Notes under the pieces: model-generated | Told to the model about the DNA's origin: nothing | The model's input: the letters and a program-made list of their open reading frames with translations, nothing else | Database searches by the model: none | Origin: an uncultured Candidatus Saccharibacteria bacterium | Lineage (GTDB): Bacteria; Patescibacteriota; Minisyncoccia; Phycocordibacterales; UBA2100 | Length of the DNA stretch: 64,000 bases | Direction: 5' to 3' | Assembly: GCA_964586255.1 (NCBI GenBank) | Contig: CAZPGE010000001.1 | Span: 133,907-197,906 of the forward strand | Shown: piece after piece, positions 1,964-51,415 of the stretch | Numbering within the stretch: position 1 is the first letter of the stretch | Layout: each line of letters starts with the position of its first letter | Translations under genes and position numbers: made by a program

Positions 1964-2860
1964 TTAGAGATTCTGCGAGACCGTCTCTGCGGAAGCGCTT
2001 GGGCGAACGTTGTACACGATAATCGCTACAAATACGGCGAGTGATAGCAAGAAGTAGTTGCCAAACCCGAGCACGTCAGTCAGGAGATCGACGAGTGCGA
2101 CAGGAATAAGCGCAAACAGAGCGAGCACATACGATGTCCCGTAGTCGTATGAGAGACCCTTGAATTTCGCGATGAGCATCACGATGAGCGCGGCAAAAAG
2201 TGCGACAAAGAGATATGCCACGACGGAAAAGCCGGTAATCAGGAAGAAAAGGAGTACCGGAAGCACGTAGAGGAATCCATTGACGAAGGGTCTAATCTTT
2301 TCGATAAAGCTCGTAACCATCGCTTTGTCGAGTGTGAAATCCTTTACCTCACTGAGGTCAACGGGGCGGAAGCTGCCCGTCGGATTCGGGACATCCTTCA
2401 GATTTTCTGCCTCAGCTTCATCTGCGACGAACAGTGTCTTTTGCGTGAGTATGACCGGCGCGTCGTACGACGTAAGCTCAGCTACGGTGACTTCGGGTCG
2501 CGTGTCGATGACGGCGAGGTATTGGGGCGATGTAGATGCAGATTCCTTGCCGGGCATGTCGATGAAGTATGGCTGCGCGACATTCGCGCTCGCTTCCCCG
2601 TCCTTTATAGTGACGACGAGCTCTGAAGGATAGATTCCAGACGCTGTATCCAAGAAATTGGTATTTACAAAAAGGATGAGGGCAATGCCGGCCGGAATAG
2701 CAATCATCAGGGCCCACACGACTGATATCCATGAGAGTACGGAGAGCGGTTTCGGTATGCGACTCGATGTTGCTTCCGTGTAGAGCTCAGGGTCGTTAAA
2801 ACTGCGTCGAATAAGTGTCGCTATGCGTGAGATGTAGTTCATATGCACATACTGTCGCAC
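1964..2860 (-). CDS. Hypothetical polytopic membrane protein
   Basis: 298 aa ORF; N-terminal TM helix, soluble middle domain, C-terminal cluster of hydrophobic helices. Confidence 0.55.
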   Translation of the reverse strand: MRQYVHMNYISRIATLIRRSFNDPELYTEATSSRIPKPLSVLSWISVVWALMIAIPAGIALILFVNTNFLDTASGIYPSELVVTIKDGEASANVAQPYFIDMPGKESASTSPQYLAVIDTRPEVTVAELTSYDAPVILTQKTLFVADEAEAENLKDVPNPTGSFRPVDLSEVKDFTLDKAMVTSFIEKIRPFVNGFLYVLPVLLFFLITGFSVVAYLFVALFAALIVMLIAKFKGLSYDYGTSYVLALFALIPVALVDLLTDVLGFGNYFLLSLAVFVAIIVYNVRPSASAETVSQNL

Positions 2861-18745: not shown

Positions 18746-20665
18746 TCAGACCAAGATTGCTTTGATTCGTCGAATTCCTGAGGCGACCGCTTCTTCCTTT
18801 TGGATTTTGAAGGCTCCGTCCGTGCCAATTTCCTTTGTGTTGTTTACATGTGGGCCGCCACAAAATTCGATCGAGTATGCCTCCGCAAATTGCGGATTTT
18901 CTTGCGATGCCGTGATTGGCCCCACTGAGTACACGGATACCATGTCTGGATACTTGGCTCCGAATTCATGTTCGGCGCCGAGCATTTCGGCGTCTTCCCT
19001 TGGAAGAGTCGAGCGAACTACGGGCAATGCATCTTGAATGCGCTCATTCACGATGCGTTCTACGTCTGCAATCTGCTCTTTGGTCATCTTTTCTCCGTGC
19101 GAGAAGTCGATGCGAAGTCTTTCCGATGTAATGTTCGAGCCGCGCTGCTTCACATGGGGACCGAGCACTATCTGCAACGCTTTGAGAAGCAGGTGATGGG
19201 CCGTGTGAAGTCGTGTCGTCTTTTCAGAATGGTCTGCAAGACCTCCTTTGAATTTTTGCTCAGCACCAGCACGAGAAAGCTCTTGATGTGTTTTCATTCG
19301 CTCATAAAATCCCCTACTGTCCACTGAAATACCTCGCTCTACGGCGAGCTCTTGTGTCATTTCAAACGGAAATCCATAGGTGGTGAAGAGCATGTACGCG
19401 CCATCGGCCGTTATTGGGCTGTCGCTGAGTTTCTCAAATTCACGTAGCCCGCTTTCAAGTGTTCGCGCAAACTGCACTTCCTCTTTCCAGATTTCCGATG
19501 TGATGTCTTGATACACTGCTTCTCCGTCGAGCTCCGCGTAAGCTTGTTTGTACTTTTCCATCAATATCACCGAAGTGCGCACAAGCATGCTGTCCTCCGT
19601 TTTTTCAGCGGCAATGCCAATCTTTTGTACATGCTGCGATGCCCTCCTCAGAAGGCGGCGCAATACGTATCCGCGGTCGGTATTCGATGGCCTCACGCCG
19701 TCGGCAAGCATAAAGACCGCGGCGCGCATGTGATCAGCAACGATTCGGAATGAGCGCCTGTAGCGGCTGTCTGCATATTCTTTACCTGAAAATTTCTCTA
19801 GCAGCTCTATGACATCCCAAAAGACATCGGTCTTAAAGACATCTGAATCCCCTCTTTGCGCCGCCGCAATCCGCTCAAGCCCGCCACCGAAGTCTACATT
19901 TTGCTTGGGGAGCAGCGCGAACGAGCCATCGGCCTGCTTGATGTACTGCATGAACACGGAATTCCCTATTTCCATAAATCGCCCGCAATCACAATTCGGA
20001 TGACATTCTGGGCCAAACTTGGCATCGTGAGGTGTGCCGAAGTCGTAAAATACCTCGCTGTCGGGTCCGCCGGGCTCGCCAGTGGGCATATTCTCTGGCA
20101 CGCCGGCGCGACTCCACCAATTCTTTTTTGCGTTGTAGTAGAAGATTCGTCCGCCCCGCATACCAAGTCGGTACCCATCGGCCTCACTTCCTACGTCACG
20201 TATTTCCGCATCTATACCGCGCTCACTGAAGAGACGCTGCCATATCTCCGCCGACTCCGTGTCGCGCGGCACATTGTTGGCTTCATCCCCGATAAACGCG
20301 GTGACATAGAGTCGACTCGCATCGATACCAATGTCCTTGGTAAGAAATTCAAACACAAATGGCAATTGCTCATTCTTAAAGTAGTCACCGAGCGACCAAT
20401 TGCCGAGCATTTCAAAGAATGTCGTGTGACGGTTATCGCCCACCTCATCGATATCCTCGGCGCGGAAGCACTTTTGACTATTCACGAGTCGTACGCCTTT
20501 GGGATGCGGCTCACCGAGAAGATACGGGACCAGGGGCTGCATGCCGGATCCTGTAAAAAGCGTGGTCGGATCATTTTGCGGCACGAGCGACGCAGATGGA
20601 ATCACCGTGTGCCCGCGCGCTTTATAAAACTGCAGGTATCGCTCGCGAATATCGTTGACGGTCAT
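18746..20665 (-). CDS. alaS: Alanine--tRNA ligase, short form (catalytic, tRNA-binding and editing domains; no C-Ala domain)
   Basis: From the Met at 20665 (MTVNDIRERYLQFYKARGHTVIPSASLVP...). Class II motifs; editing-domain HxxxH/CxxxH region near the C-terminus. Confidence 0.92.
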   Translation of the reverse strand: MTVNDIRERYLQFYKARGHTVIPSASLVPQNDPTTLFTGSGMQPLVPYLLGEPHPKGVRLVNSQKCFRAEDIDEVGDNRHTTFFEMLGNWSLGDYFKNEQLPFVFEFLTKDIGIDASRLYVTAFIGDEANNVPRDTESAEIWQRLFSERGIDAEIRDVGSEADGYRLGMRGGRIFYYNAKKNWWSRAGVPENMPTGEPGGPDSEVFYDFGTPHDAKFGPECHPNCDCGRFMEIGNSVFMQYIKQADGSFALLPKQNVDFGGGLERIAAAQRGDSDVFKTDVFWDVIELLEKFSGKEYADSRYRRSFRIVADHMRAAVFMLADGVRPSNTDRGYVLRRLLRRASQHVQKIGIAAEKTEDSMLVRTSVILMEKYKQAYAELDGEAVYQDITSEIWKEEVQFARTLESGLREFEKLSDSPITADGAYMLFTTYGFPFEMTQELAVERGISVDSRGFYERMKTHQELSRAGAEQKFKGGLADHSEKTTRLHTAHHLLLKALQIVLGPHVKQRGSNITSERLRIDFSHGEKMTKEQIADVERIVNERIQDALPVVRSTLPREDAEMLGAEHEFGAKYPDMVSVYSVGPITASQENPQFAEAYSIEFCGGPHVNNTKEIGTDGAFKIQKEEAVASGIRRIKAILV

Positions 20666-20731
20666 TCGAATCAAAGTAGCGCGACGAAGGCTTTTGCGCA
20701 ACGAGGCGCTGGAGGATACTATGCGCTAGTC

Positions 20732-22003
20732 ATGAAAAGCCGTATACACACTCTCAAGAACGGACTCCGCATCGTGCTCACCAAGGTGCCCGGCAACAAG
20801 ACGGCGACCGTTGTCGTCATGACTGGTACGGGCTCTCGCTATGAGAGCGCAAGCGAGAACGGACTGGCACACTTCCTTGAACACATGTTTTTTAAGGGGA
20901 CGAGAAAGCGTCCGTCTGCAAAGGCTATTAGCGAAGAGCTCGATGGCGTCGGCGCTGTTTACAATGCATATACGGCAAAGGACCGCACTGCCTATTATGC
21001 AAAAGTGGGCGCAGAGTATATCGACTCGGCGCTCGACGTCATCACGGATATATTTTTGAATTCCTCGCTTCCCTCACGCGAAATAACTAAAGAGCGAGGC
21101 GCAATCATCCAAGAAATTGATATGTACGAAGATATGCCGATGCGTACCGTCGACAATGTATTTGAGGAATTACTTTTCGGCGCAGAACACCCACTTGGCA
21201 GAACCATTTTGGGTCCTAAGGCAAACATTCGTCGTTTTACACGAGAGGAATTTATTGCGTATCACAAGCGCAACTACACACCGCTCAATACAATAGTCTC
21301 CATCGCGGGCGATTTTGATGAAAAGAAAGCGCTTGCGAAGCTGCAGAAGATTTTCGGGATACTTGATGTAGGTAACCCGCCAGACTGCATCACATTTTCA
21401 TCGGAGCAAGATTCTGCGCGTGCTGCAATAAAAGAAAAGAAGACGGACCAGACACAGCTTATGATTGGTGTACCTGCATACCCGTATCAGCACAAAGACG
21501 AGTATGTACTTGCGGTCTTGTCGACGGCACTCGGCGGCGGTATGTCGAGCCGACTTTTCACAGAAGTTCGTGAAAAACGCGGGCTTGCATATTCCGTACA
21601 CGCGTGGATTGAGAAATACCCCGATACGGGATATCTCGCAGTGCAGGCAGGCGTGCAGCACGAGAAGCTAAACGAGACGGTCAAAACAGTTCTTGCTGAA
21701 TTCCGGAAGCTCAAGCGAGTGCGCATACCTTCTGCGGAGCTCGCGAAAGTGAAGGCATATCTGAGAGGCACCATGACACTTTCCCTCGAAACGAGCGATG
21801 AAATAGCTCAAGACGCTGCATCTTCTCTACTTACGACACGGCGGATACGCCCCCTTTCAGAGCGCCTCAACGCCATCGATGCCGTGAGCGCAGCCGATGT
21901 GCAGCGCGTTGCCGTCGACCTCTTCAAAGGACATCTCCTCAATCTCGCCGTAATAGGACCGCATGCGAACCGAAGGGAGCTGGAGGCCCTCCTCAAGATA
22001 TAG
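20732..22003 (+). CDS. M16 family zinc peptidase (pitrilysin-like, inverted HxxEH motif)
   Basis: True start MKSRIHTLKNGLRIV... at 20732, not the 715-aa ORF beginning at 19856. Contains HFLEHMFFKGT (HxxEH). Confidence 0.88.
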   Translation: MKSRIHTLKNGLRIVLTKVPGNKTATVVVMTGTGSRYESASENGLAHFLEHMFFKGTRKRPSAKAISEELDGVGAVYNAYTAKDRTAYYAKVGAEYIDSALDVITDIFLNSSLPSREITKERGAIIQEIDMYEDMPMRTVDNVFEELLFGAEHPLGRTILGPKANIRRFTREEFIAYHKRNYTPLNTIVSIAGDFDEKKALAKLQKIFGILDVGNPPDCITFSSEQDSARAAIKEKKTDQTQLMIGVPAYPYQHKDEYVLAVLSTALGGGMSSRLFTEVREKRGLAYSVHAWIEKYPDTGYLAVQAGVQHEKLNETVKTVLAEFRKLKRVRIPSAELAKVKAYLRGTMTLSLETSDEIAQDAASSLLTTRRIRPLSERLNAIDAVSAADVQRVAVDLFKGHLLNLAVIGPHANRRELEALLKI

Positions 22004-22007
22004 CCGC

Positions 22008-22262
22008 TTACAGCGCACCCTCGGTAGCAAGTATCTGTCTTTTGCGCTCGATACCGCCTCTGTTGTAGCCGCGCATCGTACCATCCGAGGCGACGACTCT
22101 ATGACACGGGATAGATTCATCAAAATTCGTGCGCATAATCGCACCGACTGCTCTCGCGGCTTTTTCGTTGCCGGCTTTCTTGGCTACTTCTTTATAGGTG
22201 AGAGTCTTGCCTTTGGGGATTGCGCGTACGATATCTCGAACTTTGTCCGCAAAAGTCTTCAT
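22008..22262 (-). CDS. Minimal O6-alkylguanine-DNA alkyltransferase (MGMT DNA-binding/active-site domain only)
   Basis: 84 aa. PCHRVV active-site motif (Cys retained, so not an Atl-type PWHRV). HTH ...VAKKAGNEKAARAVGAIMRTN... Confidence 0.8.
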   Translation of the reverse strand: MKTFADKVRDIVRAIPKGKTLTYKEVAKKAGNEKAARAVGAIMRTNFDESIPCHRVVASDGTMRGYNRGGIERKRQILATEGAL

Positions 22263-23068
22263 AGTCCGAGTGTTCCTGATTCGTGTGTCGGCGGCACTGA
22301 TTTTTTCTTAGGCGCAAAGGCGAGCATTTTCTTTCCTACCGCTTCACGGTATCGACAATAATCACATTCCGAGTCCGGCTCGGGCAGCGCATCGCTCTCA
22401 AGGCATGCCTTGATGTTAAGGAGCTCTCGGTCTACCCACGATGCATCTCCCGTGTACGGCACGAGTGTCACTTCAAACTCTAGCTTCGCATCAAACGCTT
22501 CTTTGTCTTTCGACGCATTCGCATAGACAAAGTAGCCCGTATCGCTGACGGTGAACCCATTCTGGCGCAAGAGCCATTGGTATATCTCCATCTGCCGCTT
22601 GTAGCCTATGTGCCAGTCTTGATCCAAGACAGTAATCTGATCGTCCTTACTCGTGGATTTGTAATCGACGACGATAAGCTCCCCATTCGGACGCTCCCAC
22701 ACATCGTCAACTGCACCAGAGACCGTAAAGCCTGTGGGCGCGTGCTTATGCTCGACTCCTTTGAAATTTTCGCGCCATATATCAATCGCCGAGTTTCGAT
22801 ACGGCACCGCATCGAGCTTGTACGCCTTCATGAGAGGGTGAGACGTCCCGTTGACGCGATGCACATCAAATTCCTTCTTGAGAAGGGCGTCGACTGCACT
22901 GTTGAGATTGAATGGAAACCCTGGCGGCCTCGCCGTGCCAAGTTTGTTGTCAATATAGAAACACCTCGGACATTCCAAAAATAGACTAATTTTGGACCTT
23001 GAAAGACGGAACCGGTCTCCACCATAGTTCCATCCAGGATTCCTGTCGGGTTTGTAGTACGTACTCAT
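22259..23068 (-). CDS. Cas4/RecB-family PD-(D/E)XK nuclease with a 4-Cys cluster (standalone, no CRISPR context)
   Basis: 269 aa. E...VVDYKST (D-x-K core), QMEIYQWLL (QxxxY motif), Cys at CPRC (N-terminus) and CDYC (C-terminus). Confidence 0.6.
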   Translation of the reverse strand: MSTYYKPDRNPGWNYGGDRFRLSRSKISLFLECPRCFYIDNKLGTARPPGFPFNLNSAVDALLKKEFDVHRVNGTSHPLMKAYKLDAVPYRNSAIDIWRENFKGVEHKHAPTGFTVSGAVDDVWERPNGELIVVDYKSTSKDDQITVLDQDWHIGYKRQMEIYQWLLRQNGFTVSDTGYFVYANASKDKEAFDAKLEFEVTLVPYTGDASWVDRELLNIKACLESDALPEPDSECDYCRYREAVGKKMLAFAPKKKSVPPTHESGTLGL

Positions 23069-23147
23069 CGAAACGAGTATACCTCATGAGTCACTGCCCG
23101 CGAGATGCCAGGGCAGTGCATAGAGGTAAAGATGGACGCTCGTGTGC

Positions 23148-23675
23148 TCAAATCTTTTGGATGTCCGTGTGTGAGTCCACTATGTACTCGGCAAACCAGT
23201 GTTTAAAACGATTCTCGACATACCACATACCGGTAAACAGGATGAGCACCATGATTGTGGCAAATATTGAAAGCGCATAGAGACCAAATCCCACAGCCAT
23301 ACCGATTGCCGCCATCATCCACAAACCAGCCGCGGTTGTGACACCATGGAGTGAATTCCCTTGAAATACGATGAGTCCTCCTCCCAAAAATCCTATCCCC
23401 GTAACAATAGCCGCAGCGATAAATGTGGGCTGGATATCTGCGACACCAAGAAATGCAAGGTTGACGTAGTTACCAATCAAGACGAAGAGCGCTGCACCAA
23501 GCGCCACCAGTCCAAACGTGCGAGTCCCTGCAAACTGCTTTGCGAGCAATGCTCTTTCTGTTCCAACAATGCCACCCAACAGTACTGCCAGAAGGAGCTT
23601 GCCAAACATCACAGTGGTCGGGTCTATAAACATCTCAGGTGTCGGCATGTCAAAAGTATACGCTATACCGGGCAC
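23148..23675 (-). CDS. MgtC/SapB family membrane protein (transmembrane domain only)
   Basis: 175-aa ORF; ...GVTTAAGLWMMAAIGMAVGFGLYALSIFAT... is MgtC-like. The true start may be an internal Met. Confidence 0.7.
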   Translation of the reverse strand: MPGIAYTFDMPTPEMFIDPTTVMFGKLLLAVLLGGIVGTERALLAKQFAGTRTFGLVALGAALFVLIGNYVNLAFLGVADIQPTFIAAAIVTGIGFLGGGLIVFQGNSLHGVTTAAGLWMMAAIGMAVGFGLYALSIFATIMVLILFTGMWYVENRFKHWFAEYIVDSHTDIQKI

Positions 23676-24487
23676 AACTGTCGCGCCTCATTAAGCACCT
23701 GTGGAATTCGATTGGGCGCGACGCCATGCTCACGAAGCACGTCCTCAGTGCGGAGCGACTTGCACAAAACAATCCTACTTTCGAGAAATCGACGCTTCTC
23801 ACTGTCCGTGAGCGTTGTAAGTGCTGTAAGCGGGTGGACTTTTGCCTCTTCTATCATATGCATGAGACCACGAGACCTCGGATAATCCCATGCAAGAATG
23901 GTGAGATTTGAGCATCGCGCATACCGTACTGCATTGCTCGTGAACTCCGTATTTGTCACCAGCCATCCTTCATCGACTCGCGACGACGCCGTCGGTGCCT
24001 GTTTAAGATCTTCATACCGCGCATGCACATAGAGAGCGTCTTTGATATCGGTCTTGCCACCCGGCTCATTGTGGAACTTCGCTTCAATCCCGACACGATG
24101 ACCGTCTTTCTCTGCCAGGACATCCACTTCATGCGGTGCACATCGTCCCATCAGCATGAGGTCGGTACGGACGGTCCATCCGTGTGCGCGAAGCACCTCA
24201 GCAAGGAACTGTTCAAAAGGAAATCCCGAAGGCCCCAGAGAATATACGGCACGTTTTACCGAGTATCGCGCGGCGACAGGTGCAATCTCCTCTGTGCGAA
24301 GAAAATCAAATGCCTTTCGATAGATCTCCTCGGTCGATATGAGGGGGCGCAGCTCATGGAGCACTTTTGCCACGGTCCGCGCACGTGCCGTAGATGATGC
24401 CCCTGCATGCATGAGGGACTGCTCCAGTTTCGCGGGGTCGAAACGTTCGGTCGTACCGTCGGCTTTTTTGATAAGAATATGATCCAT
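23663..24487 (-). CDS. ATP-cone domain fused to an Mrr-type restriction endonuclease catalytic domain
   Basis: 274 aa. N-terminal ILIKKADGTTERFDPAKLEQSL... matches the ATP-cone pattern (VIKRDG.xEPFDxxKI). C-terminal VDVLAEKDGHRVGIEAKFHN is the Mrr_cat (D-x-A-E-K ... E-A-K) PD-(D/E)XK motif. Confidence 0.7.
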   Translation of the reverse strand: MDHILIKKADGTTERFDPAKLEQSLMHAGASSTARARTVAKVLHELRPLISTEEIYRKAFDFLRTEEIAPVAARYSVKRAVYSLGPSGFPFEQFLAEVLRAHGWTVRTDLMLMGRCAPHEVDVLAEKDGHRVGIEAKFHNEPGGKTDIKDALYVHARYEDLKQAPTASSRVDEGWLVTNTEFTSNAVRYARCSNLTILAWDYPRSRGLMHMIEEAKVHPLTALTTLTDSEKRRFLESRIVLCKSLRTEDVLREHGVAPNRIPQVLNEARQLCPV

Positions 24488-24490
24488 AAA

Positions 24491-24949
24491 CTAGTGCTTT
24501 ACTTCCTTTGCCGGTGTAATAGCGATGCGAAGCGGCTCGTCATCAAGAGTGGAGATGAATTCGATACCGACCGACGGAGCGAATACCACTGCGCGAAACG
24601 CGCGCGGCGTATCTGCCTCAACGCAGTCGATATTCGGTTCTTCCCAGGTCGAAAATTTCAAATGAAAGATATTGTCTGCAACCTCCTCAGTGCGTACGGA
24701 AAGCTGCCTGCATGTCGAGGGCACCATGACCATTCCCGAAAGGTGGTGCTCACCTACCTTTAGAAAATCGCGAATGAGAACCATGCGCGATTGATCGAGC
24801 GCTTGCGTGTGTATCGCATTGCCTGCCATAAGAAAGATTGCATAGGCAATCGCCGATGCAACTACGAAGAACCAGACGAGGCGCCGCACAAGATCGAGCA
24901 TTCTCCGCATTGTACCCGCGCGCAAGGAAAAATGCGCGCGACTATACAC
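24491..24949 (-). CDS. Hypothetical membrane-anchored protein
   Basis: 152-aa ORF with one N-terminal TM (LVWFFVVASAIAYAIFLMAG) followed by ~100-aa soluble domain. Stop-start juxtaposed with neighbours. Confidence 0.45.
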   Translation of the reverse strand: MYSRAHFSLRAGTMRRMLDLVRRLVWFFVVASAIAYAIFLMAGNAIHTQALDQSRMVLIRDFLKVGEHHLSGMVMVPSTCRQLSVRTEEVADNIFHLKFSTWEEPNIDCVEADTPRAFRAVVFAPSVGIEFISTLDDEPLRIAITPAKEVKH

Positions 24950-24952
24950 AGC

Positions 24953-26002
24953 TTACGCGATACGTCCTCCGCCGAGACACACATCTCCGCGATAGACGAC
25001 GAGCGATTGACCTTTCGACACGGTGTGCGCAGCGTCAAAGACCGCGGCACAAGAGCCGTCGCTATTTTCGCGTATCGTCACGTTGAACACCTGCTCCCTA
25101 TACCGAGATTGAGCTTCAGCCGTAAGGGGCATGTGAAGCTCTTGCAGCCAGTGTGTATCCACAAGATGCGCATGGAGAACTTCGGTATCTTCTCGCCTGT
25201 CAGAAACGGTAATTGTATTGCTCTGTGCATCGATGCGAACTACGTAATGCGGCTTTGCTGGCTCCGGGACAGCAATACGAAACCCGTGCCGTTGCCCTAC
25301 GGTATAGAGCGCAGCACCGTCGTGCGTGCCTATCACCTCCCCGCTCGCACTCAGGACCTCGCCTTCTGAGACATCTATGTACCGGCGGAGAAAATCTCGC
25401 ATGCTCACGTCGCCGACAAAGCAAAGTCCCTGGCTGTCGTGTTTCTGTGCTACTGGGAGTCGCATGCTTCGCGCCAATGCGCGCACATCTGTCTTGAGCA
25501 AATCCCCGACGGGAAACAGGATGCATGGCAAATGCTCGCGACTCACCCTATGGAGAAAATATGACTGATCTTTCTCCGCGTCGACGCCGCGATACAGCGC
25601 ATACGAACCGCTTTCTGCTTTTTGTATACGCGCATAGTGTCCCGTCGCGACCATATCTGCGCCGTCAGCACGGGCCCAGTCGTAAAACGAGCCAAACTTG
25701 ATGCGCTCATTGCAGTCAACGTCCGGGTTCGGAGTCTCGCCCATTCGATACGATTCGATCATTCGCTCGACGACGTCGTGCTTGTATTCACCAGATAAAT
25801 CAATCTCGCGAAAAGGAATGTCGAGTGCTACAGCGACTCGCATCGCGTCGATTCGATCTTTCTCCCACGTACACTCGATGAATTCTGGCTGCCATATCTT
25901 GATAAACACCCCGACTACATCATATTCATCGCGTTTTAGAAGTGCCGCAGAGACAGCGGAATCGACGCCGCCTGAAAGACCCACATATACCTTCCTACTC
26001 AT
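24953..26002 (-). CDS. mnmA: tRNA-specific 2-thiouridylase MnmA
   Basis: 349 aa; N-terminal VYVGLSGGVDSAVSAALL PP-loop; MnmA-like length and C-terminal domain. Confidence 0.92.
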   Translation of the reverse strand: MSRKVYVGLSGGVDSAVSAALLKRDEYDVVGVFIKIWQPEFIECTWEKDRIDAMRVAVALDIPFREIDLSGEYKHDVVERMIESYRMGETPNPDVDCNERIKFGSFYDWARADGADMVATGHYARIQKAESGSYALYRGVDAEKDQSYFLHRVSREHLPCILFPVGDLLKTDVRALARSMRLPVAQKHDSQGLCFVGDVSMRDFLRRYIDVSEGEVLSASGEVIGTHDGAALYTVGQRHGFRIAVPEPAKPHYVVRIDAQSNTITVSDRREDTEVLHAHLVDTHWLQELHMPLTAEAQSRYREQVFNVTIRENSDGSCAAVFDAAHTVSKGQSLVVYRGDVCLGGGRIA

Positions 26003-27060: not shown

Positions 27061-28509
27061 CTATTTAGGCAAGTTCGAAGGTGCGGTCGCTTTTGTCGAA
27101 GGAATGCGGCGAAGTCCTGGCGCTTGGACGGTACTGCTCGGGGGGTGCCAGAGCGTCGCAAGCGTCTCATTGGTGAGTACATTCGTAGGGGTCACCCAAG
27201 GAGTGTGGAAGAACGATCGCCTGCGAAATGCATCAAAGAAGCGGCGCGCATGGAGATTCCATCTAAAGTCAGCGACATCCTGCCATGGATAGTCAAACGG
27301 ATTGTGATAGCGTCGCGGGCGAAGCTGTGACATGTAATTTGGATTGCCGAGCGGTTTCCAGAGCCAACGTGTACCCGTGTACGTGGGGCCATGCATGTGG
27401 CCCGTGGTGATATAGCATCCTCGCGCTCCTGTCTCAAACGGATATTTACCGAGGTGCCGCTCCATACTTTTCATCTGCTCGGTCTGTTTCCACGTCGCGC
27501 GCGGCTGCGGAGGTCGTGCGGGGGTTTCGTTCTCACCGAGCTCTGCAAGCACGTTCTCAATAGTGTGTCCGCTGATAACAGCTGCCTTCGTCCTCACCTT
27601 TTCCACCTCGTGCTCCACTTCGTGCATCCAATCGTGATCTTGGTCATGCGTAAAGAGGATTCCCTGCTTGCCACACTTTCGGATGATTATCTGCACCCAT
27701 ATTTGCTCTTGAGGCTCTATGTTGCTCATGAATTCAAGTATCGTAGCGAGTGGGTCTACACGAAATTCCTCCTTCGGGTCCTTATCGAGCTCAAAGTCTA
27801 TATACGTCTTCGGCTGGTAGGCATTCATTGCCATCGAGTCAGCCTTTAGACCGCTATGGTACGCCTCGAGACGCCAGTCTGTGCAGAACACATTGTGTTT
27901 TTCAGGGTCGAATTCAAACTTGGTCGCATAGTCCTCCACTTCATACAGCTCGACTTCTGGATATTGGCCGTATATAGCACTCTCGACTTCGCTCTTGTAG
28001 TTCTTCCACGTCCAAATATAGAAATGCAGCTCTCCCCCGAAACTTGCAATCTCAAAAGAGAAGAATGGTCGCACCTGACCTTTCCACGCGCGATGGATAA
28101 AGGTGGTTTCGCCCGATGAAATCGAGAACAAGCTAAACGCTATCTCCATCGCTCGCGGTGATTTTGTGATCTCTCTCGGCACTTTCATTTCGAGCAATAT
28201 CGGGTTGCGACCGGAGAGGAAGAGCGACTGTACGTACCACATCCAAATTCTCCATGCTCCCATAATAAGTATGATCGGGAGCCAAATTGGCGCTGTGCCG
28301 ACGATCCAATTGAAGGTGTAGAGCGGCAAGTGCGGTATGAGGTGAAGAAGCCATAGGTATTCTGCCACGAAGAGGGCTGCAAGAAACATGCCACGCGACA
28401 CGCCCCAGTCGCCGAGCCAATTTATCCACCCGTCGAGTGAAGAATACTTCAATCCGTCTGTATACGTCGTGATGAACTTGTGTATGACACCACCTTCGCT
28501 CGAAGACAT
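27061..28509 (-). CDS. Hypothetical membrane protein (2-3 N-terminal TM helices plus a large Trp/His-rich soluble domain)
   Basis: 482-aa ORF; no recognisable catalytic motif; basic, Pro-rich C-terminal tail. Confidence 0.5.
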   Translation of the reverse strand: MSSSEGGVIHKFITTYTDGLKYSSLDGWINWLGDWGVSRGMFLAALFVAEYLWLLHLIPHLPLYTFNWIVGTAPIWLPIILIMGAWRIWMWYVQSLFLSGRNPILLEMKVPREITKSPRAMEIAFSLFSISSGETTFIHRAWKGQVRPFFSFEIASFGGELHFYIWTWKNYKSEVESAIYGQYPEVELYEVEDYATKFEFDPEKHNVFCTDWRLEAYHSGLKADSMAMNAYQPKTYIDFELDKDPKEEFRVDPLATILEFMSNIEPQEQIWVQIIIRKCGKQGILFTHDQDHDWMHEVEHEVEKVRTKAAVISGHTIENVLAELGENETPARPPQPRATWKQTEQMKSMERHLGKYPFETGARGCYITTGHMHGPTYTGTRWLWKPLGNPNYMSQLRPRRYHNPFDYPWQDVADFRWNLHARRFFDAFRRRSFFHTPWVTPTNVLTNETLATLWHPPSSTVQAPGLRRIPSTKATAPSNLPK

Positions 28510-42482: not shown

Positions 42483-43736
42483 TCAGTATATCTTGCCGCG
42501 ACGCTTTCTATGCCAACCAATAGCGAATCTGTGAGCTTCGCTGTTGGCGAGCAAGATATCCTTTTCAAACGCATCTATTGACCGTTTGTCCCCCACAAGC
42601 TTCACCGGTTTGTGACGCTCATCTTTCACGACTCCGACAACCGGTATACGTACGCCGGCCTTTTTGAGCACGCGCTCGGCCGCTCGCTGCTGCGCCACGC
42701 CACCATCGACCGCAAATACGCGAGGGAGCGGCCATTCTGGGTGCGCAAGGCGACGGTCGAGCGCCTCGGTGAGTGCAGCAACGTCATTGTTTTCAACACT
42801 TTGTATTTTAAATTTACGATAGGCCGCCTTAAAGACCTCACCGCTACTCACGACTGTCATCACCGCGACGGTCTCCTTCCCCGAGGTGTGTGCGACGTCG
42901 AAGGCCTCGATACGCGCACCGCCGCCCGCAGACACTTTCTCCGCTTTGATAAGCGATACATCTTTGATGTGTTCGAGCGCCGAGCACTGCCGTCTGAGTA
43001 TCTGCGCGAGCTCAAATTTCTCCGCTTTCGCGGCAGCATGCATCTCCTTTGTAAGCTGCCGTTTCAGACCCTGAAAATTGCCGGAAAAAAGCTGTGCGAT
43101 ATGCTGGATTGTCTTTGCGTACTCGGTTCGCGACACCTCCCCTGTGCACACGCCGGGACAAAGTCCTATCTGCTTATTGAAACAGGGCTTACACACGTAT
43201 GGAAAACCGTCTTTTACATTCTTGGCCTGCCGCTGGTTCTCGCACGGCGTACATTTTGAATCTCGAAACGAAAATATCTTTCGCACAATCTTCAACGCCT
43301 CCTGGAGCGAGGCGCCTTCGGTAAACGGGCCAAACTGGTGCTTTATAGCCGACGCCTCCCAATTTTGGAAAAGTTCTCGCCCGCGCACGACCAGCACACG
43401 TGGGAAATTCTCCTTGGTGATGACAACATAGTTGAAGCTCTTGTTGTCTTTCGACATCGCATTGTACGGCGGCATATGCCGTTTGATGAGATTGGCCTCG
43501 AGAATAAGCGCTTCGAGCACTGAGTGCGCGATCTCGTGACTCACCCCACTCGCCTCCTGAACCATTTTCTCGATATGGAGCCCGCGTGTACTCGCAATAT
43601 CCGGCGAGAAGTAGCTTCTCACACGGTCGCGCAAAGATGTCGCCTTTCCTATGTAGAGGATTTTGCGGCCCTTTTTGAAGGTATAAACACCGGGCTCATC
43701 CGGCAAATCAAACTGTTTCAAGTCATCGCGCTGCAT
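42483..43736 (-). CDS. uvrC: Excinuclease ABC subunit C, short form (GIY-YIG, UvrC Cys region and RNase-H-like domain; no C-terminal HhH)
   Basis: 417 aa; GIY-YIG (PGVYTFK...ILYIGKA), C-terminal ...AFDVAHTSGKETVAVMTVV... endonuclease domain. Confidence 0.85.
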   Translation of the reverse strand: MQRDDLKQFDLPDEPGVYTFKKGRKILYIGKATSLRDRVRSYFSPDIASTRGLHIEKMVQEASGVSHEIAHSVLEALILEANLIKRHMPPYNAMSKDNKSFNYVVITKENFPRVLVVRGRELFQNWEASAIKHQFGPFTEGASLQEALKIVRKIFSFRDSKCTPCENQRQAKNVKDGFPYVCKPCFNKQIGLCPGVCTGEVSRTEYAKTIQHIAQLFSGNFQGLKRQLTKEMHAAAKAEKFELAQILRRQCSALEHIKDVSLIKAEKVSAGGGARIEAFDVAHTSGKETVAVMTVVSSGEVFKAAYRKFKIQSVENNDVAALTEALDRRLAHPEWPLPRVFAVDGGVAQQRAAERVLKKAGVRIPVVGVVKDERHKPVKLVGDKRSIDAFEKDILLANSEAHRFAIGWHRKRRGKIY

Positions 43737-43778: not shown

Positions 43779-43876
43779 CTTGCCGGCATGTTTGAGGGGG
43801 TCTCTGCAGCACGTCGGTGCGAAGCGGAGGGAATTTTCACCAGAAAATTTCCGACCCCCGAGAATATGCCGGCAAG
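43779..43876 (+). promoter_or_regulatory. Structured leader element upstream of carA: long inverted repeat (CTTGCCGGCAT...GGGGGTC / GACCCCC...ATGCCGGCAAG) enclosing an inner palindrome GGAATTTTCACCAGAAAATTTCC
   Basis: Nested inverted repeats read directly from the sequence. Lies in the 300-nt uvrC/carA divergent intergenic region. Confidence 0.45.
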
Positions 43877-43975
43877 GGACGCCCCCACTATCCACAGCTA
43901 CGTTGCGTTTGACGCGTCGTAATCGAGGTCTATACTGCTGTTTTAATGACCTCCAAGAAGTGCCCGCAGATATAC

Positions 43976-44036
43976 AGCCCGCTTGGGGCTATTTTTTTGT
44001 CATTTTTTCATCCCGCCTCGAGCGGGGTTTTTTCTA
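43976..44036 (+). terminator. Two tandem intrinsic terminators (AGCCC-gcttg-GGGCT + T8; CCCGC-ctcga-GCGGG + T6) ending 1 nt before the carA ATG; candidate attenuator
   Basis: Hairpin plus U-tract pairs on the plus strand, with no upstream plus-strand gene. Confidence 0.5.
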
Positions 44037-44037
44037 T

Positions 44038-45096
44038 ATGCGCTTAATACTCGAAGACGGCACGGTGTTCGAGGGCACAGGCTTCGGCGCACCTACTTCA
44101 AGCGCAGGAGAGGTGGTCTTCTCAACCGGTATGACCGGCTATGTTGAGTCGCTGACCGACCCATCGTTCGCCGGGCAGATTCTTGTCTGCACCTATCCAC
44201 TTATAGGCAATTACGGGGTACCCGACGCATCGAAGTTTGAGTCAAGTCGCATGCACATTAAAGGCCTCATAGTTTCGGAGTATTCGAATACGTACTCCCA
44301 TGGAGAAGCCAAGGAATCACTCGATGCCTGGCTCAAGCGCTCGGGAGTACCCGCGATTCAAGGAATCGATACGCGCGCTCTTACCAAGAAGCTTCGTGAG
44401 CGCGGCGTTATGCTCGGCCAAATCGTAGACACAGAGCCCGGTGAATTCATCGACCCCAACAGAGAAAACCTCGTCGCGAGTGTCTCGCCAAAAGACGTCC
44501 GCACATACGGCAGTGGTCCGCTGCGCATACTCGCCGTCGACTGCGGCATGAAGGAAAACATCGTACGCGCTCTCACGAGACCGGAGACGACCGTCATACG
44601 AGTGCCCTGGAATTTTGATTTCGCGCGTGAGAGATACGACGCGATTGTGCTCTCCAACGGCCCGGGTGACCCTGAAATGTGCGACGCGACGGTGGTCAAC
44701 ATACGAAAAGCCATGAAGGAGCGGAAACCTATTTTGGGCGTGTGTTTGGGCAATCAGCTGCTCGCACTCGCCGCTGGCGCATCGACATACAAACTCAAAT
44801 ACGGACATCGTGGGCAAAATCAACCGTGCATAGACGCAGATAGCGGGCGCTGCTACATTACCTCGCAAAACCATGGTTTTGCCGTCGACGCATCCACGTT
44901 ACCGACAAGTTGGCGTGTCTGGTTTACCAACGCCAACGACGGCTCCGTCGAAGGTATTCGCCACACGTCGCATCCATGGCGCTCTGTACAGTTCCATCCC
45001 GAAGCCTCGCCCGGCCCTACCGATACCGCATGGATATTTGATGACTTTCTGAAAGAGCTCACCGTACACAGACGGATTCACGTAACTCATATATGA
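44038..45096 (+). CDS. carA: Carbamoyl-phosphate synthase small (glutamine amidotransferase) subunit
   Basis: From MRLILEDGTVFEGTGFGA...; GATase class I with catalytic Cys in LGVCLGNQLL and His/Glu near the C-terminus. Confidence 0.92.
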   Translation: MRLILEDGTVFEGTGFGAPTSSAGEVVFSTGMTGYVESLTDPSFAGQILVCTYPLIGNYGVPDASKFESSRMHIKGLIVSEYSNTYSHGEAKESLDAWLKRSGVPAIQGIDTRALTKKLRERGVMLGQIVDTEPGEFIDPNRENLVASVSPKDVRTYGSGPLRILAVDCGMKENIVRALTRPETTVIRVPWNFDFARERYDAIVLSNGPGDPEMCDATVVNIRKAMKERKPILGVCLGNQLLALAAGASTYKLKYGHRGQNQPCIDADSGRCYITSQNHGFAVDASTLPTSWRVWFTNANDGSVEGIRHTSHPWRSVQFHPEASPGPTDTAWIFDDFLKELTVHRRIHVTHI

Positions 45097-48000: not shown

Positions 48001-48401
48001 AAAATATCCTGCTGTCACTCGGAGGCGAGGAACATAAGGTGAAGCTACTTCCGGCACTCAAGAATCTATACGCGCTTGGATTTAACTTCTACGCCACCGA
48101 ACACACGGCCGACTTTCTTTCGGAACACGGCATGCGTAATAAAAAGGTATACAAACTTCATCAGAGGAAAAAGCCCAACGTCGCCGAATTACTCCACTCC
48201 GGGGAGCTGGACCTCATCATCAATATTCAGCAGCGCGCACTCAAGCCTTCGCAGGATGGTTTTGCGGTACGCAGAAAGGCGATAGATATGAATATTCCTC
48301 TTATTACAAACCGGCAGCTCGCCGAGGCGTTTATCCTCGCACTCTGTGAACTCAAGGAGATGCCTGCACCCAAAGCCTGGCACGAGTACAAAAGCGAATA
48401 G
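45093..48401 (+). CDS. carB: Carbamoyl-phosphate synthase large subunit (with ~45-aa N-terminal extension)
   Basis: 1102 aa; duplicated ATP-grasp halves, MGS-like C-terminal domain. Start overlaps the carA stop (ATGA). Confidence 0.93.
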   Translation: MTKSFQDNHERETASSGVSRSASSADPRHREAALREHAQTATPKKLPRRVLLLGSGGLKIGQAGEFDYSGSQAIKALKEEGIEVVLMNPNIATVQTDEKLADTVYFLPLTLAFATGVIEKEKPDAIFLSFGGQTALNLGLQLEETGILKKHGIAVLGTPVSTIRDTEDRDLFIARLSEIGVQTARSKAARAVQEALRAAKEIGFPVMLRSGFALGGEGSGVVKNAQELTDKLTEVFRNVPQVLVEENLGGWKEVEYEVVRDKADNCITVCNMENIDPMGIHTGESIVVAPSQTLSNRDYHMLREVAIKTIRHLGIVGECNIQYALHPTSGDYRVIEVNARLSRSSALASKATGYPLAFVAAKLGLGYTLTELKNSVTKKTTACFEPALDYVVLKMPRWDLAKFENAATRIGTEMKSVGEVMAIGRSFEEVLQKAIRMLNTGAQGFTTQKNGAFNVANYRKEIHEPTTRRIFALAQALRDGVSIERIHQLSKIDRWFLSKMENIIAIEKRLKRGRLTKERILEAKRAGFSDAQIATLTKSTELKVRALRKKLGVLPSIKQIDTLAGEFPARTNYLYVTYHGTEHDVERGDNQMAVLGSGPYCIGSSVEFDWSCVQALKTLKKEGYDTIMINSNPETVSTDYDMSDRLYFEELSLERILDIAEFEKPKGLMISAGGQIPNNLALPLHKCGLPILGTSPEDINRAEDRHVFSKMLDKLGVDQPGWAELSTLAAARKTAKKLGYPVLVRPSYVLSGAAMSVAYDEPSLVRFLRKAVSITNDHPVVISKYIENAREIEIDGVAKKGKLVVYAITEHVENAGTHSGDATVVLPPQRTYLETIRRAKQAAKHIVKELNITGPFNIQFLAKDNKLQVIECNVRASRSFPFVSKVTGYNFIDIATRAILGRDVSGEYHTVELDTVAVKSPQFSFNRIKGADPRTSVEMASTGEVACFGDSYAEALIKSMMAAGFRLPRKNILLSLGGEEHKVKLLPALKNLYALGFNFYATEHTADFLSEHGMRNKKVYKLHQRKKPNVAELLHSGELDLIINIQQRALKPSQDGFAVRRKAIDMNIPLITNRQLAEAFILALCELKEMPAPKAWHEYKSE

Positions 48402-51261: not shown

Positions 51262-51290
51262 AGTGTATCTTTTCTCTGTCTTCTGCACTA

Positions 51291-51326
51291 CTCCTGTATT
51301 TTCACCAATTGGTGAATTTACTGCAG
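51291..51326. promoter_or_regulatory. 36-bp near-palindromic operator candidate (copy C), 30 nt upstream of the uvrA ATG: CTCCTGTATTTTCACCAATTGGTGAATTTACTGCAG
   Basis: Its reverse complement CTGCAGTAAATTCACCAATTGGTGAAAATACAGGAG differs from copy A at only a few positions. Confidence 0.6.
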
Positions 51327-51415
51327 TTCGCCTAGAGAAGGAGTCTCTCAAATCTGCAAACAATTCCGACCCCCGCTTTGCGCTAGGGGTTGGTAGGGGC
51401 ACTATATCACGCGGG

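What the first reader, a model, noticed from the sequence alone, without database searches (positions are those of the whole stretch)
23663..24487. ATP-cone domain fused to an Mrr-type restriction endonuclease
An N-terminal ATP-cone (the allosteric nucleotide-sensing module of ribonucleotide reductases and NrdR) is fused to a C-terminal Mrr_cat PD-(D/E)XK nuclease (VDVLAEKDG...IEAKFH).

This suggests a nuclease whose activity is gated by ATP/dATP levels. That is conceptually similar to nucleotide-sensing antiphage effectors.

It sits in a co-directional run with a Cas4-like nuclease, an MgtC-like membrane protein and a minimal MGMT (22008..24949), all stop-start overlapped. This could be a DNA-repair/defence island.
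Basis: partly seen in the sequence, partly recalled or inferred. Interest (0 to 1): 0.6.

Follow-up and report, generated by a model that had tools for sequence, protein, structure and literature searches.

The report
ATP-cone nuclease, conserved housekeeping gene
The gene really does fuse a nucleotide-sensing ATP-cone to a nuclease, but it is an ordinary copy of a large, already catalogued, biochemically unstudied family that behaves like a housekeeping gene tied to nucleic-acid and nucleotide metabolism, not like a phage-defence gene.

Summary
The ORF 23663..24487 (-), 274 aa, is real. It has three domains, not two: an ATP-cone, an Mrr_cat PD-(D/E)XK nuclease and a C-terminal (HhH)2 domain. 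It is an ortholog of AF1548 (PDB 1Y88, function unknown). Full-length AF1548 orthologs carry the same three domains.

The family holds at least 421 clusters at 50% identity and occurs in at least 598 species genomes: Patescibacteria, Bacteroidota, Chlamydiota and many archaea. Across 373 members the catalytic E120, D122, E135 and K137 are invariant. The cone's nucleotide-site residues K8, G11 and K20 are at least 98% conserved.

In Patescibacteria the gene sits in a vertically inherited housekeeping block: LeuRS, sigma-like, DUF8128, YceG, MnmA, target, MgtC, Cas4-like, MGMT/UDG, AlaRS. It co-diverges with its flanks (r about 0.9).

It is absent from phage and viral collections and nearly absent from plasmids. 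It has no methyltransferase partner.

Elsewhere it heads a cassette with a beta-CASP hydrolase, an AMP/thymidine-phosphorylase-family gene and a PRPP synthetase, inside Usp-rich stress islands.

The best reading is an adenine-nucleotide-gated housekeeping nuclease. The defence-island reading is not supported. It is a new member of a known kind.

The parts
23663..24487 (-). Complete ORF, 274 aa: ATP-cone, PD-(D/E)XK (Mrr_cat) nuclease and (HhH)2 domain; an AF1548-family protein
   Evidence: The exact sequence is already in public collections, and a member of its 90% cluster is named 'restriction endonuclease [Minisyncoccota bacterium]'.
24248..24475 (-). ATP-cone domain (residues 5-80), with the motif K8-x-x-G11-x-x-E14-x-F16-x-x-x-K20-L and T52, Y75, K78
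24212..24235 (-). Invariant linker GPSGFPFE (residues 85-92), which joins the last cone helix directly to the first catalytic-helix glutamate E92
   Evidence: G85 373/373, G88 372/373, F91 373/373 and E92 372/373. Translation checked. Its role in allosteric coupling is inferred.
23885..24226 (-). PD-(D/E)XK nuclease domain (Mrr_cat, residues 88-201)
24077..24130 (-). Catalytic core EVDVLAEKDGHRVGIEAK (E120, D122, E135, K137)
   Evidence: All four residues are invariant in 373/373 family members. They align with the D38/E51/K53 predicted for AF1548 in PMC1821046. Translation checked.
23672..23875 (-). C-terminal (HhH)2-type domain (residues 205-272; Pfam AF1548-like_C)
23148..23675 (-). MgtC-family membrane protein, immediately downstream (context; not shown to be a functional partner)
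   Evidence: Pfam MgtC 104 bits. It lies at +1/+2 in 38 of 80 related loci. An MgtC+DUF4010 gene also recurs in the non-Patescibacteria islands.
22259..23068 (-). Cas4-like PD-(D/E)XK nuclease (PDDEXK_1) (context)
   Evidence: Present downstream in 40 of 80 loci. The window has no CRISPR array.
22008..22262 (-). 84-aa stand-alone MGMT C-terminal domain with the PCHR active site (context)
   Evidence: Present downstream in 17 of 80 loci.
24953..26002 (-). MnmA (tRNA 2-thiouridylase), the most constant neighbour (context)
   Evidence: It lies within three ORFs upstream (positions -1 to -3) in 66 of 80 loci. Its identity co-varies with the target's, r=0.89.

Best explanation
The gene encodes an ortholog of the AF1548 family, a soluble three-domain enzyme.

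Shown:
- The middle domain is a PD-(D/E)XK fold with a complete, invariant active site (E92, E120, D122, E135, K137).
- The C-terminal domain is an (HhH)2 module of the kind that binds nucleic acid without sequence specificity.
- The N-terminal domain is an ATP-cone. It keeps the K-x-x-G-x-x-E-x-Phi-x-x-x-K motif, which I recall from the literature on ribonucleotide reductases and NrdR as the motif that contacts adenine nucleotides.
- In Patescibacteria the gene is vertically inherited, strongly conserved, and sits among housekeeping and DNA-repair genes.

Inferred:
- The cone binds ATP and/or dATP and sets the nuclease on or off.
- The most likely route is a change in oligomeric state or in access of the (HhH)2/active-site surface to nucleic acid, as the cone does in NrdR and ribonucleotide reductases.
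- The signal would pass through the invariant GPxGFxFE linker that ends in the catalytic glutamate.

Inferred, weaker:
- The physiological job is regulated breakdown or processing of cellular or imported nucleic acid, matched to the adenylate/deoxynucleotide pool (nucleotide economy and genome maintenance).
- It is not restriction of phage DNA.
For: Domains and fold:
- Pfam places both main domains above cut-off.
- phmmer to 1Y88 gives E=3e-29 over residues 89-271.
- The AlphaFold2 model has pLDDT 91.6 and pTM 0.86.
- The (HhH)2 assignment rests.

Family architecture:
- Full-length AF1548 orthologs and about 120 archaeal relatives carry ATP-cone + Mrr_cat + AF1548-like_C.
- 421 clusters at 50% identity score E<=1e-30; the 150 best-scoring ones listed are mostly about 265-310 aa.

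Conservation of both sites:
- E120, D122, E135 and K137 are 373/373, E92 is 372/373, K8 is 368/373 and K20 is 367/373.

Housekeeping behaviour:
- Gene order is fixed in 80 loci.
- The target co-diverges with its flanks, r=0.89-0.94, and is more conserved than YceG in 60 of 61 loci and than MnmA in 41 of 65.

Not mobile and not defence-like.

Link to nucleic-acid and nucleotide metabolism in independent lineages:
- Downstream in Patescibacteria are a Cas4-like nuclease, MGMT, UDG families and an HD 5'-deoxynucleotidase-like gene.
- In Bacteroidota and Chlamydiota the order is target, beta-CASP hydrolase, AMP/thymidine-phosphorylase family, PRPP synthetase.
- The beta-CASP gene lies within +3 in 32 of 61 loci that have at least 2 downstream ORFs.
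- In a Bathyarchaeia contig the target overlaps the end of AMP phosphorylase (TIGR03327, 617 bits against a cut-off of 535), which follows ribose-1,5-bisphosphate isomerase.

Mechanistic precedent:
- NrdR forms DNA-binding tetramers with dATP+ATP and non-binding oligomers with ATP alone (abstract of bioRxiv 10.1101/2024.05.27.596032, listed).
Against: - No member of the family has been assayed. I found no paper on the fusion.
- Nucleotide binding, the ligand's identity, the direction of regulation and the substrate (DNA or RNA) are all unknown.
- Contexts are heterogeneous. The beta-CASP/AMP-phosphorylase cassette is absent from the window and from all Patescibacteria loci examined.
- In Archaeoglobi the neighbours are membrane transport genes: MscS, CorA, DUF389 and AA_permease-Usp.
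- Conserved synteny in small, stable Patescibacteria genomes may carry little functional information.
- Strong conservation does not by itself exclude a toxin-like or defence role.
Confidence: 0.55

Rival explanations
1. It is a DNA-repair or recombination nuclease, structure-specific like NucS/EndoMS or Hjc. The ATP-cone ties its activity to dNTP supply, so that cutting happens only when repair synthesis is possible.
For: - The (HhH)2 domain resembles the RAD51/RadA N-terminal DNA-binding domain.
- In Patescibacteria the recurrent downstream genes are a Cas4-like nuclease (40/80), MGMT (17/80), UDG family 4 (22/80) and UNG (8/80).
- Some sources label relatives 'Holliday junction resolvase'.
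Against: - Fold similarity to NucS and Hjc is generic for PD-(D/E)XK domains. Restriction enzymes and Can2 score the same.
- The repair neighbours are not kept outside Patescibacteria.
- The source labels are automatic COG-type names, not experiments.
- No clamp-binding or junction-specific feature was identified.
Confidence: 0.2
2. It is an anti-phage effector or Type IV-like restriction nuclease. It is switched on when infection perturbs ATP/dATP pools, and it forms a defence island with the Cas4-like gene.
For: - The catalytic domain belongs to Mrr_cat.
- It is structurally similar to ligand-gated defence nucleases (Can2, Card1, Cdn1, NucC, Avs4 nuclease domain) and to modification-dependent enzymes (MspJI, AspBHI).
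- PADLOC gives weak hits to PDC-S02 (1.9e-4) and to the ZorD nuclease part (6.6e-4).
- One archaeal relative lies next to an MjaI-type R-M pair.
Against: - There is no reader domain for modified DNA.
- No methyltransferase, cyclase or CRISPR array is nearby.
- Position is fixed in a housekeeping block, and divergence tracks MnmA, YceG and the sigma-like gene. That is the opposite of the patchy, fast-turnover pattern of defence genes.
- There are zero hits in phage and viral collections and 2 in 72,556 plasmids.
- The PADLOC hits cover only the shared nuclease fold.
Confidence: 0.08
3. It is an NrdR-like transcription factor. The ATP-cone reads ATP/dATP, and the nuclease-fold plus (HhH)2 part serves only as a DNA-binding module that regulates neighbouring genes.
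For: - From my own knowledge, PD-(D/E)XK folds have been recruited as DNA-binding domains elsewhere.
- The gene is often first in, or inside, co-directional gene strings.
Against: - All catalytic residues are invariant in 373 of 373 sequences. That is not expected if cleavage were dispensable.
- (HhH)2 domains bind the backbone rather than specific sequences (my own knowledge).
- There is no Zn-ribbon.
- None of the neighbour clusters I annotated is a ribonucleotide reductase, though not all clusters were annotated.
Confidence: 0.07

Closest known systems
AF1548 of Archaeoglobus fulgidus (PDB 1Y88, structural-genomics entry, function unknown; Pfam AF1548-like_C PF22357)
   Same: - Same catalytic D/E/K, predicted for AF1548 in PMC1821046.
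- Full-length orthologs (265 aa) have the same three-domain architecture.
   Different: - Only about 30% identical, and archaeal.
- The solved construct, and the 174-187-aa gene calls in strain DSM 4304, lack the ATP-cone.
- So no structure shows how the cone and the nuclease communicate.
E. coli Mrr and other Type IV (modification-dependent) restriction enzymes with an Mrr_cat domain
   Same: - Same catalytic-domain family, Pfam PF04471. It is grouped with 1y88 and COG1787 in PMC3424549.
   Different: - No Mrr_N or other modified-DNA reader domain; it carries an ATP-cone and (HhH)2 instead.
- It is a conserved, syntenic, non-mobile gene.
NrdR, the ATP-cone repressor of ribonucleotide reductase genes
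   Same: - Same logic: an adenine-nucleotide sensor coupled to a nucleic-acid-directed output, acting in NrdR through ATP/dATP-dependent oligomers (abstract listed).
   Different: - NrdR has the cone C-terminal to a Zn-ribbon and only binds DNA.
- Here the cone is N-terminal to a catalytically intact nuclease, and no nrd genes were seen nearby.
Ligand-gated PD-(D/E)XK effectors Can2/Card1/Cdn1 (CARF-nuclease) and NucC
   Same: - A small-molecule (adenine-nucleotide-derived) sensor fused to, or controlling, a PD-(D/E)XK nuclease.
   Different: - The sensor is an ATP-cone, not CARF.
- The expected ligand is ATP/dATP, not cyclic oligoadenylate.
- There is no CRISPR or CBASS context.
NucS/EndoMS mismatch and branched-DNA repair endonuclease
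   Same: - Housekeeping rather than defence role.
   Different: - NucS has its own N-terminal dimerisation/DNA-binding domain and, from my own knowledge, a clamp-binding tail.
- It has no ATP-cone and no (HhH)2 domain.

Membership tests
Pfam Mrr_cat (PF04471) PD-(D/E)XK catalytic domain | Profile score at or above the curated gathering cut-off | tested here: met
   38.1 bits against a cut-off of 21, residues 88-201.
Pfam Mrr_cat (PF04471) PD-(D/E)XK catalytic domain | Catalytic E...D...(D/E)xK residues present | tested here: met
   E92, D122, E135 and K137 (plus E120). D122, E135, K137 and E120 are invariant in 373/373 relatives and E92 in 372/373.
Pfam Mrr_cat (PF04471) PD-(D/E)XK catalytic domain | Restriction-endonuclease-like alpha/beta fold | tested here: met
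   [not shown]
Type IV (Mrr-like) modification-dependent restriction enzymes | A domain that reads modified DNA (Mrr_N winged helix, SRA, etc.) | tested here: not met
   Pfam finds only ATP-cone, Mrr_cat and AF1548-like_C/(HhH)2. The fold search shows no such domain.
Type IV (Mrr-like) modification-dependent restriction enzymes | Defence-gene behaviour: patchy distribution, mobile or defence-island context | tested here: not met
   Fixed synteny and co-divergence with housekeeping flanks. No phage or viral hits and 2 plasmid hits. Only weak domain-level PADLOC hits.
Type IV (Mrr-like) modification-dependent restriction enzymes | Cleavage that depends on DNA modification | not testable with these tools
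   Needs enzyme assays on methylated and unmethylated DNA.
ATP-cone (PF03477) | Profile score at or above the curated cut-off | tested here: met
   29.5 bits against a cut-off of 25.8, residues 5-80. Most relatives carry the precomputed PF03477 hit.
ATP-cone (PF03477) | Beta-hairpin plus four-helix cone fold | tested here: met
   [not shown]
ATP-cone (PF03477) | Conserved nucleotide-contact motif (KxxGxxExPhixxxK, later T and K) | tested here: met
   K8 368/373, G11 369/373, E14 319/373, K20 367/373, T52 353/373 and K78 332/373 (+39 R). The equivalence to E. coli NrdA K9/G12/E15/K21 comes from motif register and my own knowledge, not from a structure with ligand.
ATP-cone (PF03477) | Binds ATP and/or dATP | not testable with these tools
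   Needs ITC, DSF or co-crystal structures.
AF1548 family (ATP-cone + Mrr_cat + AF1548-like_C) | Significant full-length similarity and the same three-domain order | tested here: met
   1Y88 at E=3.1e-29. P0121 and about 120 relatives carry PF03477+PF04471+PF22357. All 22 C-terminal segments match PF22357, best E=3.5e-28. The window's own C-terminus scores 16-19 bits, below the 23.9 cut-off, but aligns to 1Y88 through residue 271.
NrdR | N-terminal Zn-ribbon DNA-binding domain | tested here: not met
   The protein starts directly with the cone (MDHILIKKADG...). No CxxC pairs and no Zn-ribbon hit.
NrdR | Association with nrd operons | not tested
   None of the recurrent neighbour clusters that I annotated is a ribonucleotide reductase. 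Not every cluster was annotated, and no NrdR-box search was made.
CARF/SAVED-type cyclic-oligonucleotide-gated nucleases (Can2, Card1, Cap4, NucC) | CARF/SAVED sensor, or association with type III CRISPR or CBASS | tested here: not met
   No such domain. No CRISPR array in the window. No cyclase among the annotated neighbours.

The most novel reading that the evidence does not exclude
The AF1548 family may be the adenylate-gated entry enzyme of an unrecognised 'nucleic acid to pentose-bisphosphate' catabolic module.

- When the cone senses a fall in ATP (or a change in the ATP/dATP ratio), the nuclease would cut cellular or imported nucleic acid.
- A beta-CASP hydrolase would trim the fragments to mononucleotides.
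- An AMP-phosphorylase-type enzyme and a PRPP-synthetase-type enzyme would channel the ribose into central metabolism.
- In host-dependent Patescibacteria, which are reported to carry an archaeal-type AMP/nucleoside salvage pathway (PMC5113843), the same enzyme would be a core part of the nucleotide economy. That would explain its strong conservation there.
Probability: 0.2. Interest if true: 0.65.

Novelty: new member of a known kind. Interest (0 to 1): 0.35.

Why it matters
For this window the result is mostly a correction. The gene is not evidence of a defence island. It is one more copy of a conserved family that databases already name ('ATP cone domain-containing protein' or 'restriction endonuclease') and for which a partial crystal structure exists.

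At the family level there is a modest open question worth an experiment. ATP-cones have been studied in ribonucleotide reductases and in NrdR. Here one is welded, through an invariant linker, to a catalytically intact nuclease, in at least hundreds of species from Patescibacteria, Bacteroidota, Chlamydiota and many archaeal lineages.

If the cone gates cleavage, it would be a simple and testable case of adenylate or dNTP status controlling nucleic-acid breakdown.

The repeated linkage to AMP-phosphorylase-type cassettes suggests a role in nucleotide salvage or energy-stress physiology, which bears on how reduced-genome symbionts obtain nucleotides. Culturable carriers (Cyclobacterium lianum, Pontibacter actiniarum) make this approachable.

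Tried and rejected
- The 50-sequence alignment A1 was too diverse to seed a locus search. A closer set, A2, was used instead.
- phmmer of the cone alone against PDB found no ribonucleotide reductase or NrdR. A family profile did, but its top hits were de novo designed helical repeats, which I treat as composition artefacts.
- Literature searches for the fusion returned nothing directly relevant: ATP-cone + Mrr, ATP-cone + endonuclease, 'ATP cone domain-containing protein', and ATP-cone + nuclease. An AF1548 search gave only the GOS paper.
- PADLOC gave only weak hits to the shared nuclease fold. NCBIfam has no model for the protein.
- Phage records and viral contigs gave no relatives.
- I considered a Mg2+-homeostasis theme: MgtC in Patescibacteria, CorA in Ferroglobus, and MgtC+DUF4010 in Bacteroidota-type islands. 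The recurrent P-type ATPase scores best as Ca2+-type, not Mg2+-type, and below the equivalog cut-offs. The theme rests on MgtC and CorA only and is left as a lead.
- I looked for the beta-CASP/AMP-phosphorylase/PRPP-synthetase genes in the window and in the Patescibacteria loci. None was found, so that context cannot be transferred directly to this organism.
- The promoter and terminator scan was uninformative. Promoter-like sites were at the chance level, and no convincing terminator lies inside the string.
- No CRISPR array or other tandem repeat lies near the gene.
I could not measure cone-nuclease contacts or the distance between the conserved C116 and C192.
Full report
**1. The observation**

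The window has an ATG-initiated ORF at 23663..24487 on the minus strand, 274 aa long.

Pfam places an ATP-cone at residues 5-80 (29.5 bits, curated cut-off 25.8). It places an Mrr_cat nuclease domain at residues 88-201 (38.1 bits, cut-off 21). There is also a weak hit to AF1548-like_C at residues 234-271.

The neighbours are as described: MgtC (104 bits), a PDDEXK_1/Cas4-like nuclease (60.5 bits) and an 84-aa MGMT C-terminal domain (100.6 bits). An unassigned 152-aa ORF and MnmA lie upstream.

The string is compact and co-directional but not uniformly stop-start overlapped. A 79-nt gap lies between MgtC and the Cas4-like gene.

**2. What the protein is**

A sequence search of solved structures gives one strong hit: AF1548 of Archaeoglobus fulgidus (PDB 1Y88, 'protein of unknown function'), E=3.1e-29 over residues 89-271. 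This covers the nuclease plus the whole C-terminal region.

Searching with the AF1548 sequence shows that its full-length orthologs are 260-280 aa and carry PF03477 + PF04471 + PF22357. The 174-199-aa AF_1548 entries are N-terminally short versions. The three-domain architecture is therefore the family norm.

- Generic PD-(D/E)XK nucleases: AspBHI 12.0, NucS 11.2, FokI 10.2 and Can2 10.2.

A profile of the C-terminal segment hits the RAD51 N-terminal domain (7e-4) and the NusA AR domains (1e-3). Nine of 22 members match Pfam HHH_5. This is an (HhH)2 module.

A profile of the N-terminal segment hits NrdD (2e-3), NrdR (4e-3) and NrdA (0.05).

**3. Size, spread and conservation of the family**

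The window protein itself is already in public collections. A member of its 90% cluster is named 'restriction endonuclease [Minisyncoccota bacterium]'.

The word-indexed search returned 2970 relatives. The top 120 are 70-97% identical and almost all 274 aa, mostly from Candidatus Kaiserbacteria and other Parcubacteria.

The exhaustive search of 50%-identity representatives found 1071 clusters at E<=1e-3 and 421 at E<=1e-30. The 150 best-scoring ones listed are mostly about 265-310 aa. These are mainly Patescibacteria, but include Bacteroidota such as the cultured Cyclobacterium lianum.

Archaeal carriers include Archaeoglobi, Nanoarchaeota, Aenigmarchaeota, Korarchaeota, Bathyarchaeia and Altiarchaeales.

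In an alignment of 373 full-length members:
- E120, D122, E135 and K137 are invariant, and E92 is 372/373.
- The cone residues are K8 368/373, G11 369/373, K20 367/373 and T52 353/373.
- The linker G85-P-x-G88-F-x-F91-E92 is the most conserved stretch of the protein.

D122, E135 and K137 align with the D38/E51/K53 predicted as catalytic for AF1548 in PMC1821046. PMC3424549 files 1y88 with Mrr_cat and COG1787.

The conservation of both the active site and the nucleotide site suggests that both are under purifying selection.

**4. Context in the window's own lineage**

I called ORFs in 80 related loci from species genomes, clustered them and ordered them relative to the target. From 97% down to about 42% identity the gene keeps the same place in a co-directional block:

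LeuRS, sigma70_r4/HARE-HTH protein, DUF8128, YceG, MnmA, TARGET, (DUF7282 membrane protein), MgtC, Cas4-like nuclease, MGMT, UDG family 4 or UNG, AlaRS.

- MnmA lies within three ORFs upstream (positions -1 to -3) in 66 of 80 loci.
- Downstream, MgtC occurs in 38, the Cas4-like gene in 40, MGMT in 17 and UDG in 22.
- An HD/YfbR-like 5'-deoxynucleotidase lies at +1/+2 in 6.

The target's identity to the window copy co-varies with that of the flanking genes: r=0.89 with MnmA, 0.92 with YceG, 0.91 with DUF8128 and 0.94 with the sigma-like gene. The target is more conserved than YceG in 60 of 61 loci and than MnmA in 41 of 65.

The rest of the window is ordinary core chromosome: RpoA, DnaK, DnaB, RecR, RmuC, UvrA/B/C, CarAB and several aminoacyl-tRNA synthetases. 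This is the signature of a vertically inherited housekeeping gene.

**5. Tests of the defence reading**

- PADLOC gives only weak hits to the shared nuclease fold: PDC-S02 at 1.9e-4 and the ZorD nuclease end at 6.6e-4.
- There is no modified-DNA reader domain.
- No methyltransferase is among the identified genes from 12.3 to 33.4 kb.
- The window has no CRISPR array.
- tblastn finds no relative in 50,697 phage records and only two in 72,556 plasmids. No relative is in 2.9 million viral contigs.
- One archaeal relative lies beside an MjaI-type R-M pair, but that pair is absent from the related Archaeoglobus locus.

The defence-island interpretation is therefore not supported. The 'DNA-repair' alternative is only partly supported, by the downstream repair genes in Patescibacteria.

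**6. Context elsewhere**

In Archaeoglobi the gene abuts or overlaps membrane transport genes:
- MscS in A. fulgidus.
- CorA upstream and DUF389 downstream in Ferroglobus.
- An AA_permease-Usp protein in Geoglobus and another Archaeoglobi contig.

In a Bathyarchaeia contig it overlaps the end of AMP phosphorylase (TIGR03327, 617 bits, cut-off 535). That gene follows ribose-1,5-bisphosphate isomerase (TIGR00511, 419 bits, cut-off 314).

In Bacteroidota (Cyclobacterium, Pontibacter and several MAGs) and in a Criblamydia plasmid, the annotated order is 'ATP cone domain-containing protein', MBL-fold (beta-CASP, RMMBL) hydrolase, thymidine-phosphorylase-family protein, ribose-phosphate pyrophosphokinase. 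The phosphorylase is 37% identical to the Bathyarchaeia AMP phosphorylase (E=2e-94). It scores 491 bits on the AMP-phosphorylase model, just under the cut-off.

In 87 further loci from metagenomes:
- The beta-CASP gene lies within +3 in 32 of the 61 loci that have at least two downstream ORFs.
- The phosphorylase occurs in 17 loci and the PRPP-synthetase-like gene in 15.
- The surrounding islands are rich in tandem universal stress proteins, P-type cation ATPases, phosphofructokinase, 2-hydroxyacid dehydrogenase, an AAA_28/dNK-like kinase and MgtC+DUF4010.

In Bradyrhizobium diazoefficiens an MBL/PRPP-synthetase/phosphorylase triad is induced by microoxia (PMC6515984).

None of these cassette genes is in the window or in the Patescibacteria loci. 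The link is family-level evidence, not evidence about this genome.

**7. How it most likely works**

Shown: a complete PD-(D/E)XK active site, an (HhH)2 module, an ATP-cone with its nucleotide-contact motif, and strict conservation of all three.

Inferred from established knowledge of ATP-cones:
- The cone binds ATP and/or dATP and changes oligomeric state or domain packing. NrdR binds DNA as a tetramer with ATP+dATP and forms non-binding oligomers with ATP only (abstract). From my own knowledge, ribonucleotide reductases form inactive oligomers with dATP.
- That change would switch nuclease access on or off.
- The invariant linker ending in the catalytic glutamate, and the high pTM of the model, fit tight coupling but do not prove it.

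The biological role is less certain. I favour regulated nucleic-acid turnover tied to nucleotide or energy status. A repair nuclease is the main rival. Defence and NrdR-like regulation are unlikely.

**8. Novelty and verdict**

The fusion is a catalogued architecture with database names and a partial crystal structure. I found no biochemical study of it. The window's gene is an ordinary ortholog, so I file it as a new member of a known kind.

Interest is moderate to low for this locus. The family-level question is unstudied and testable in culturable Bacteroidota: an ATP-cone gating a nuclease, linked to AMP-phosphorylase cassettes in several phyla.

Noticed in passing
window 24491..24949 (-): A 152-aa ORF with an N-terminal transmembrane helix sits between MnmA and the target. 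It has no Pfam, NCBIfam or PADLOC match. It is conserved only in the closest relatives (10 loci); in most other Patescibacteria MnmA abuts the target directly.
   Followed up: partly
window 22259..23068 (-): The Cas4-like PD-(D/E)XK protein has an N-terminal CPRC and a C-terminal CDYC motif, four cysteines in all, as in the iron-sulfur-cluster Cas4/AddB-type nucleases (my own knowledge). It is more conserved than the target (mean 63% against 57% identity). The window has no CRISPR array. Its divergence correlates poorly with the target's (r=0.41).
   Followed up: partly
window 22008..22262 (-): A stand-alone 84-aa MGMT C-terminal (DNA_binding_1) domain retains the PCHR active-site cysteine but lacks the usual N-terminal domain. 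It overlaps the Cas4-like gene by 4 nt.
   Followed up: no
window 27061..28509 (-): A 482-aa protein (weak DUF8128 hit in the relative L001; no Pfam hit for the window copy) is conserved upstream of YceG in 55-60 of 80 Patescibacteria loci. Its function is unknown.
   Followed up: no
window residues C116 and C192 of the target (nt 24140..24142 and 23912..23914): Two cysteines are conserved in about 95% of 373 family members (354 and 353). H119 and H139 are also largely conserved. This could be a disulfide or a metal site.
   Followed up: partly
AF_1548 in A. fulgidus DSM 4304 (proteins P0394, P0396 against P0121): The type-strain gene is called at 174-187 aa without the ATP-cone. Other Archaeoglobus assemblies that are 99% identical encode 265 aa with the cone. 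This is either an old mis-called start or a real truncation or frameshift in the strain used for the crystal structure.
   Followed up: no
L089 2551..3807 and 2163..2558: An MjaI-type restriction-modification pair (N6_N4_Mtase + RE_MjaI) lies divergently next to one Archaeoglobi relative. It sits between the relative and the DUF432-MscS genes, which abut the gene directly in A. fulgidus, so it looks like an insertion.
   Followed up: no
window 19856..22003 (+) and 18746..20701 (-): The 715-aa ORF listed on the + strand overlaps AlaRS on the opposite strand. Only its last 422 codons (from 20735) match a real gene, an M16 peptidase with the HFLEH zinc motif.
   Followed up: yes
window 42483..43736, 48631..51402, 52335..54377: UvrC, UvrA and UvrB all lie within 12 kb, interleaved with carbamoyl-phosphate synthase small and large subunits (43780..48401). 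The organism therefore has nucleotide-excision repair and at least the first step of pyrimidine or arginine synthesis.
   Followed up: no
L094-L173 (metagenome loci), e.g. L164-L166 and L173: Up to five tandem universal-stress-protein genes lie directly upstream of the target's relatives. An 84-aa ORF with no family match is wedged between the target and the beta-CASP gene in 14 loci.
   Followed up: partly
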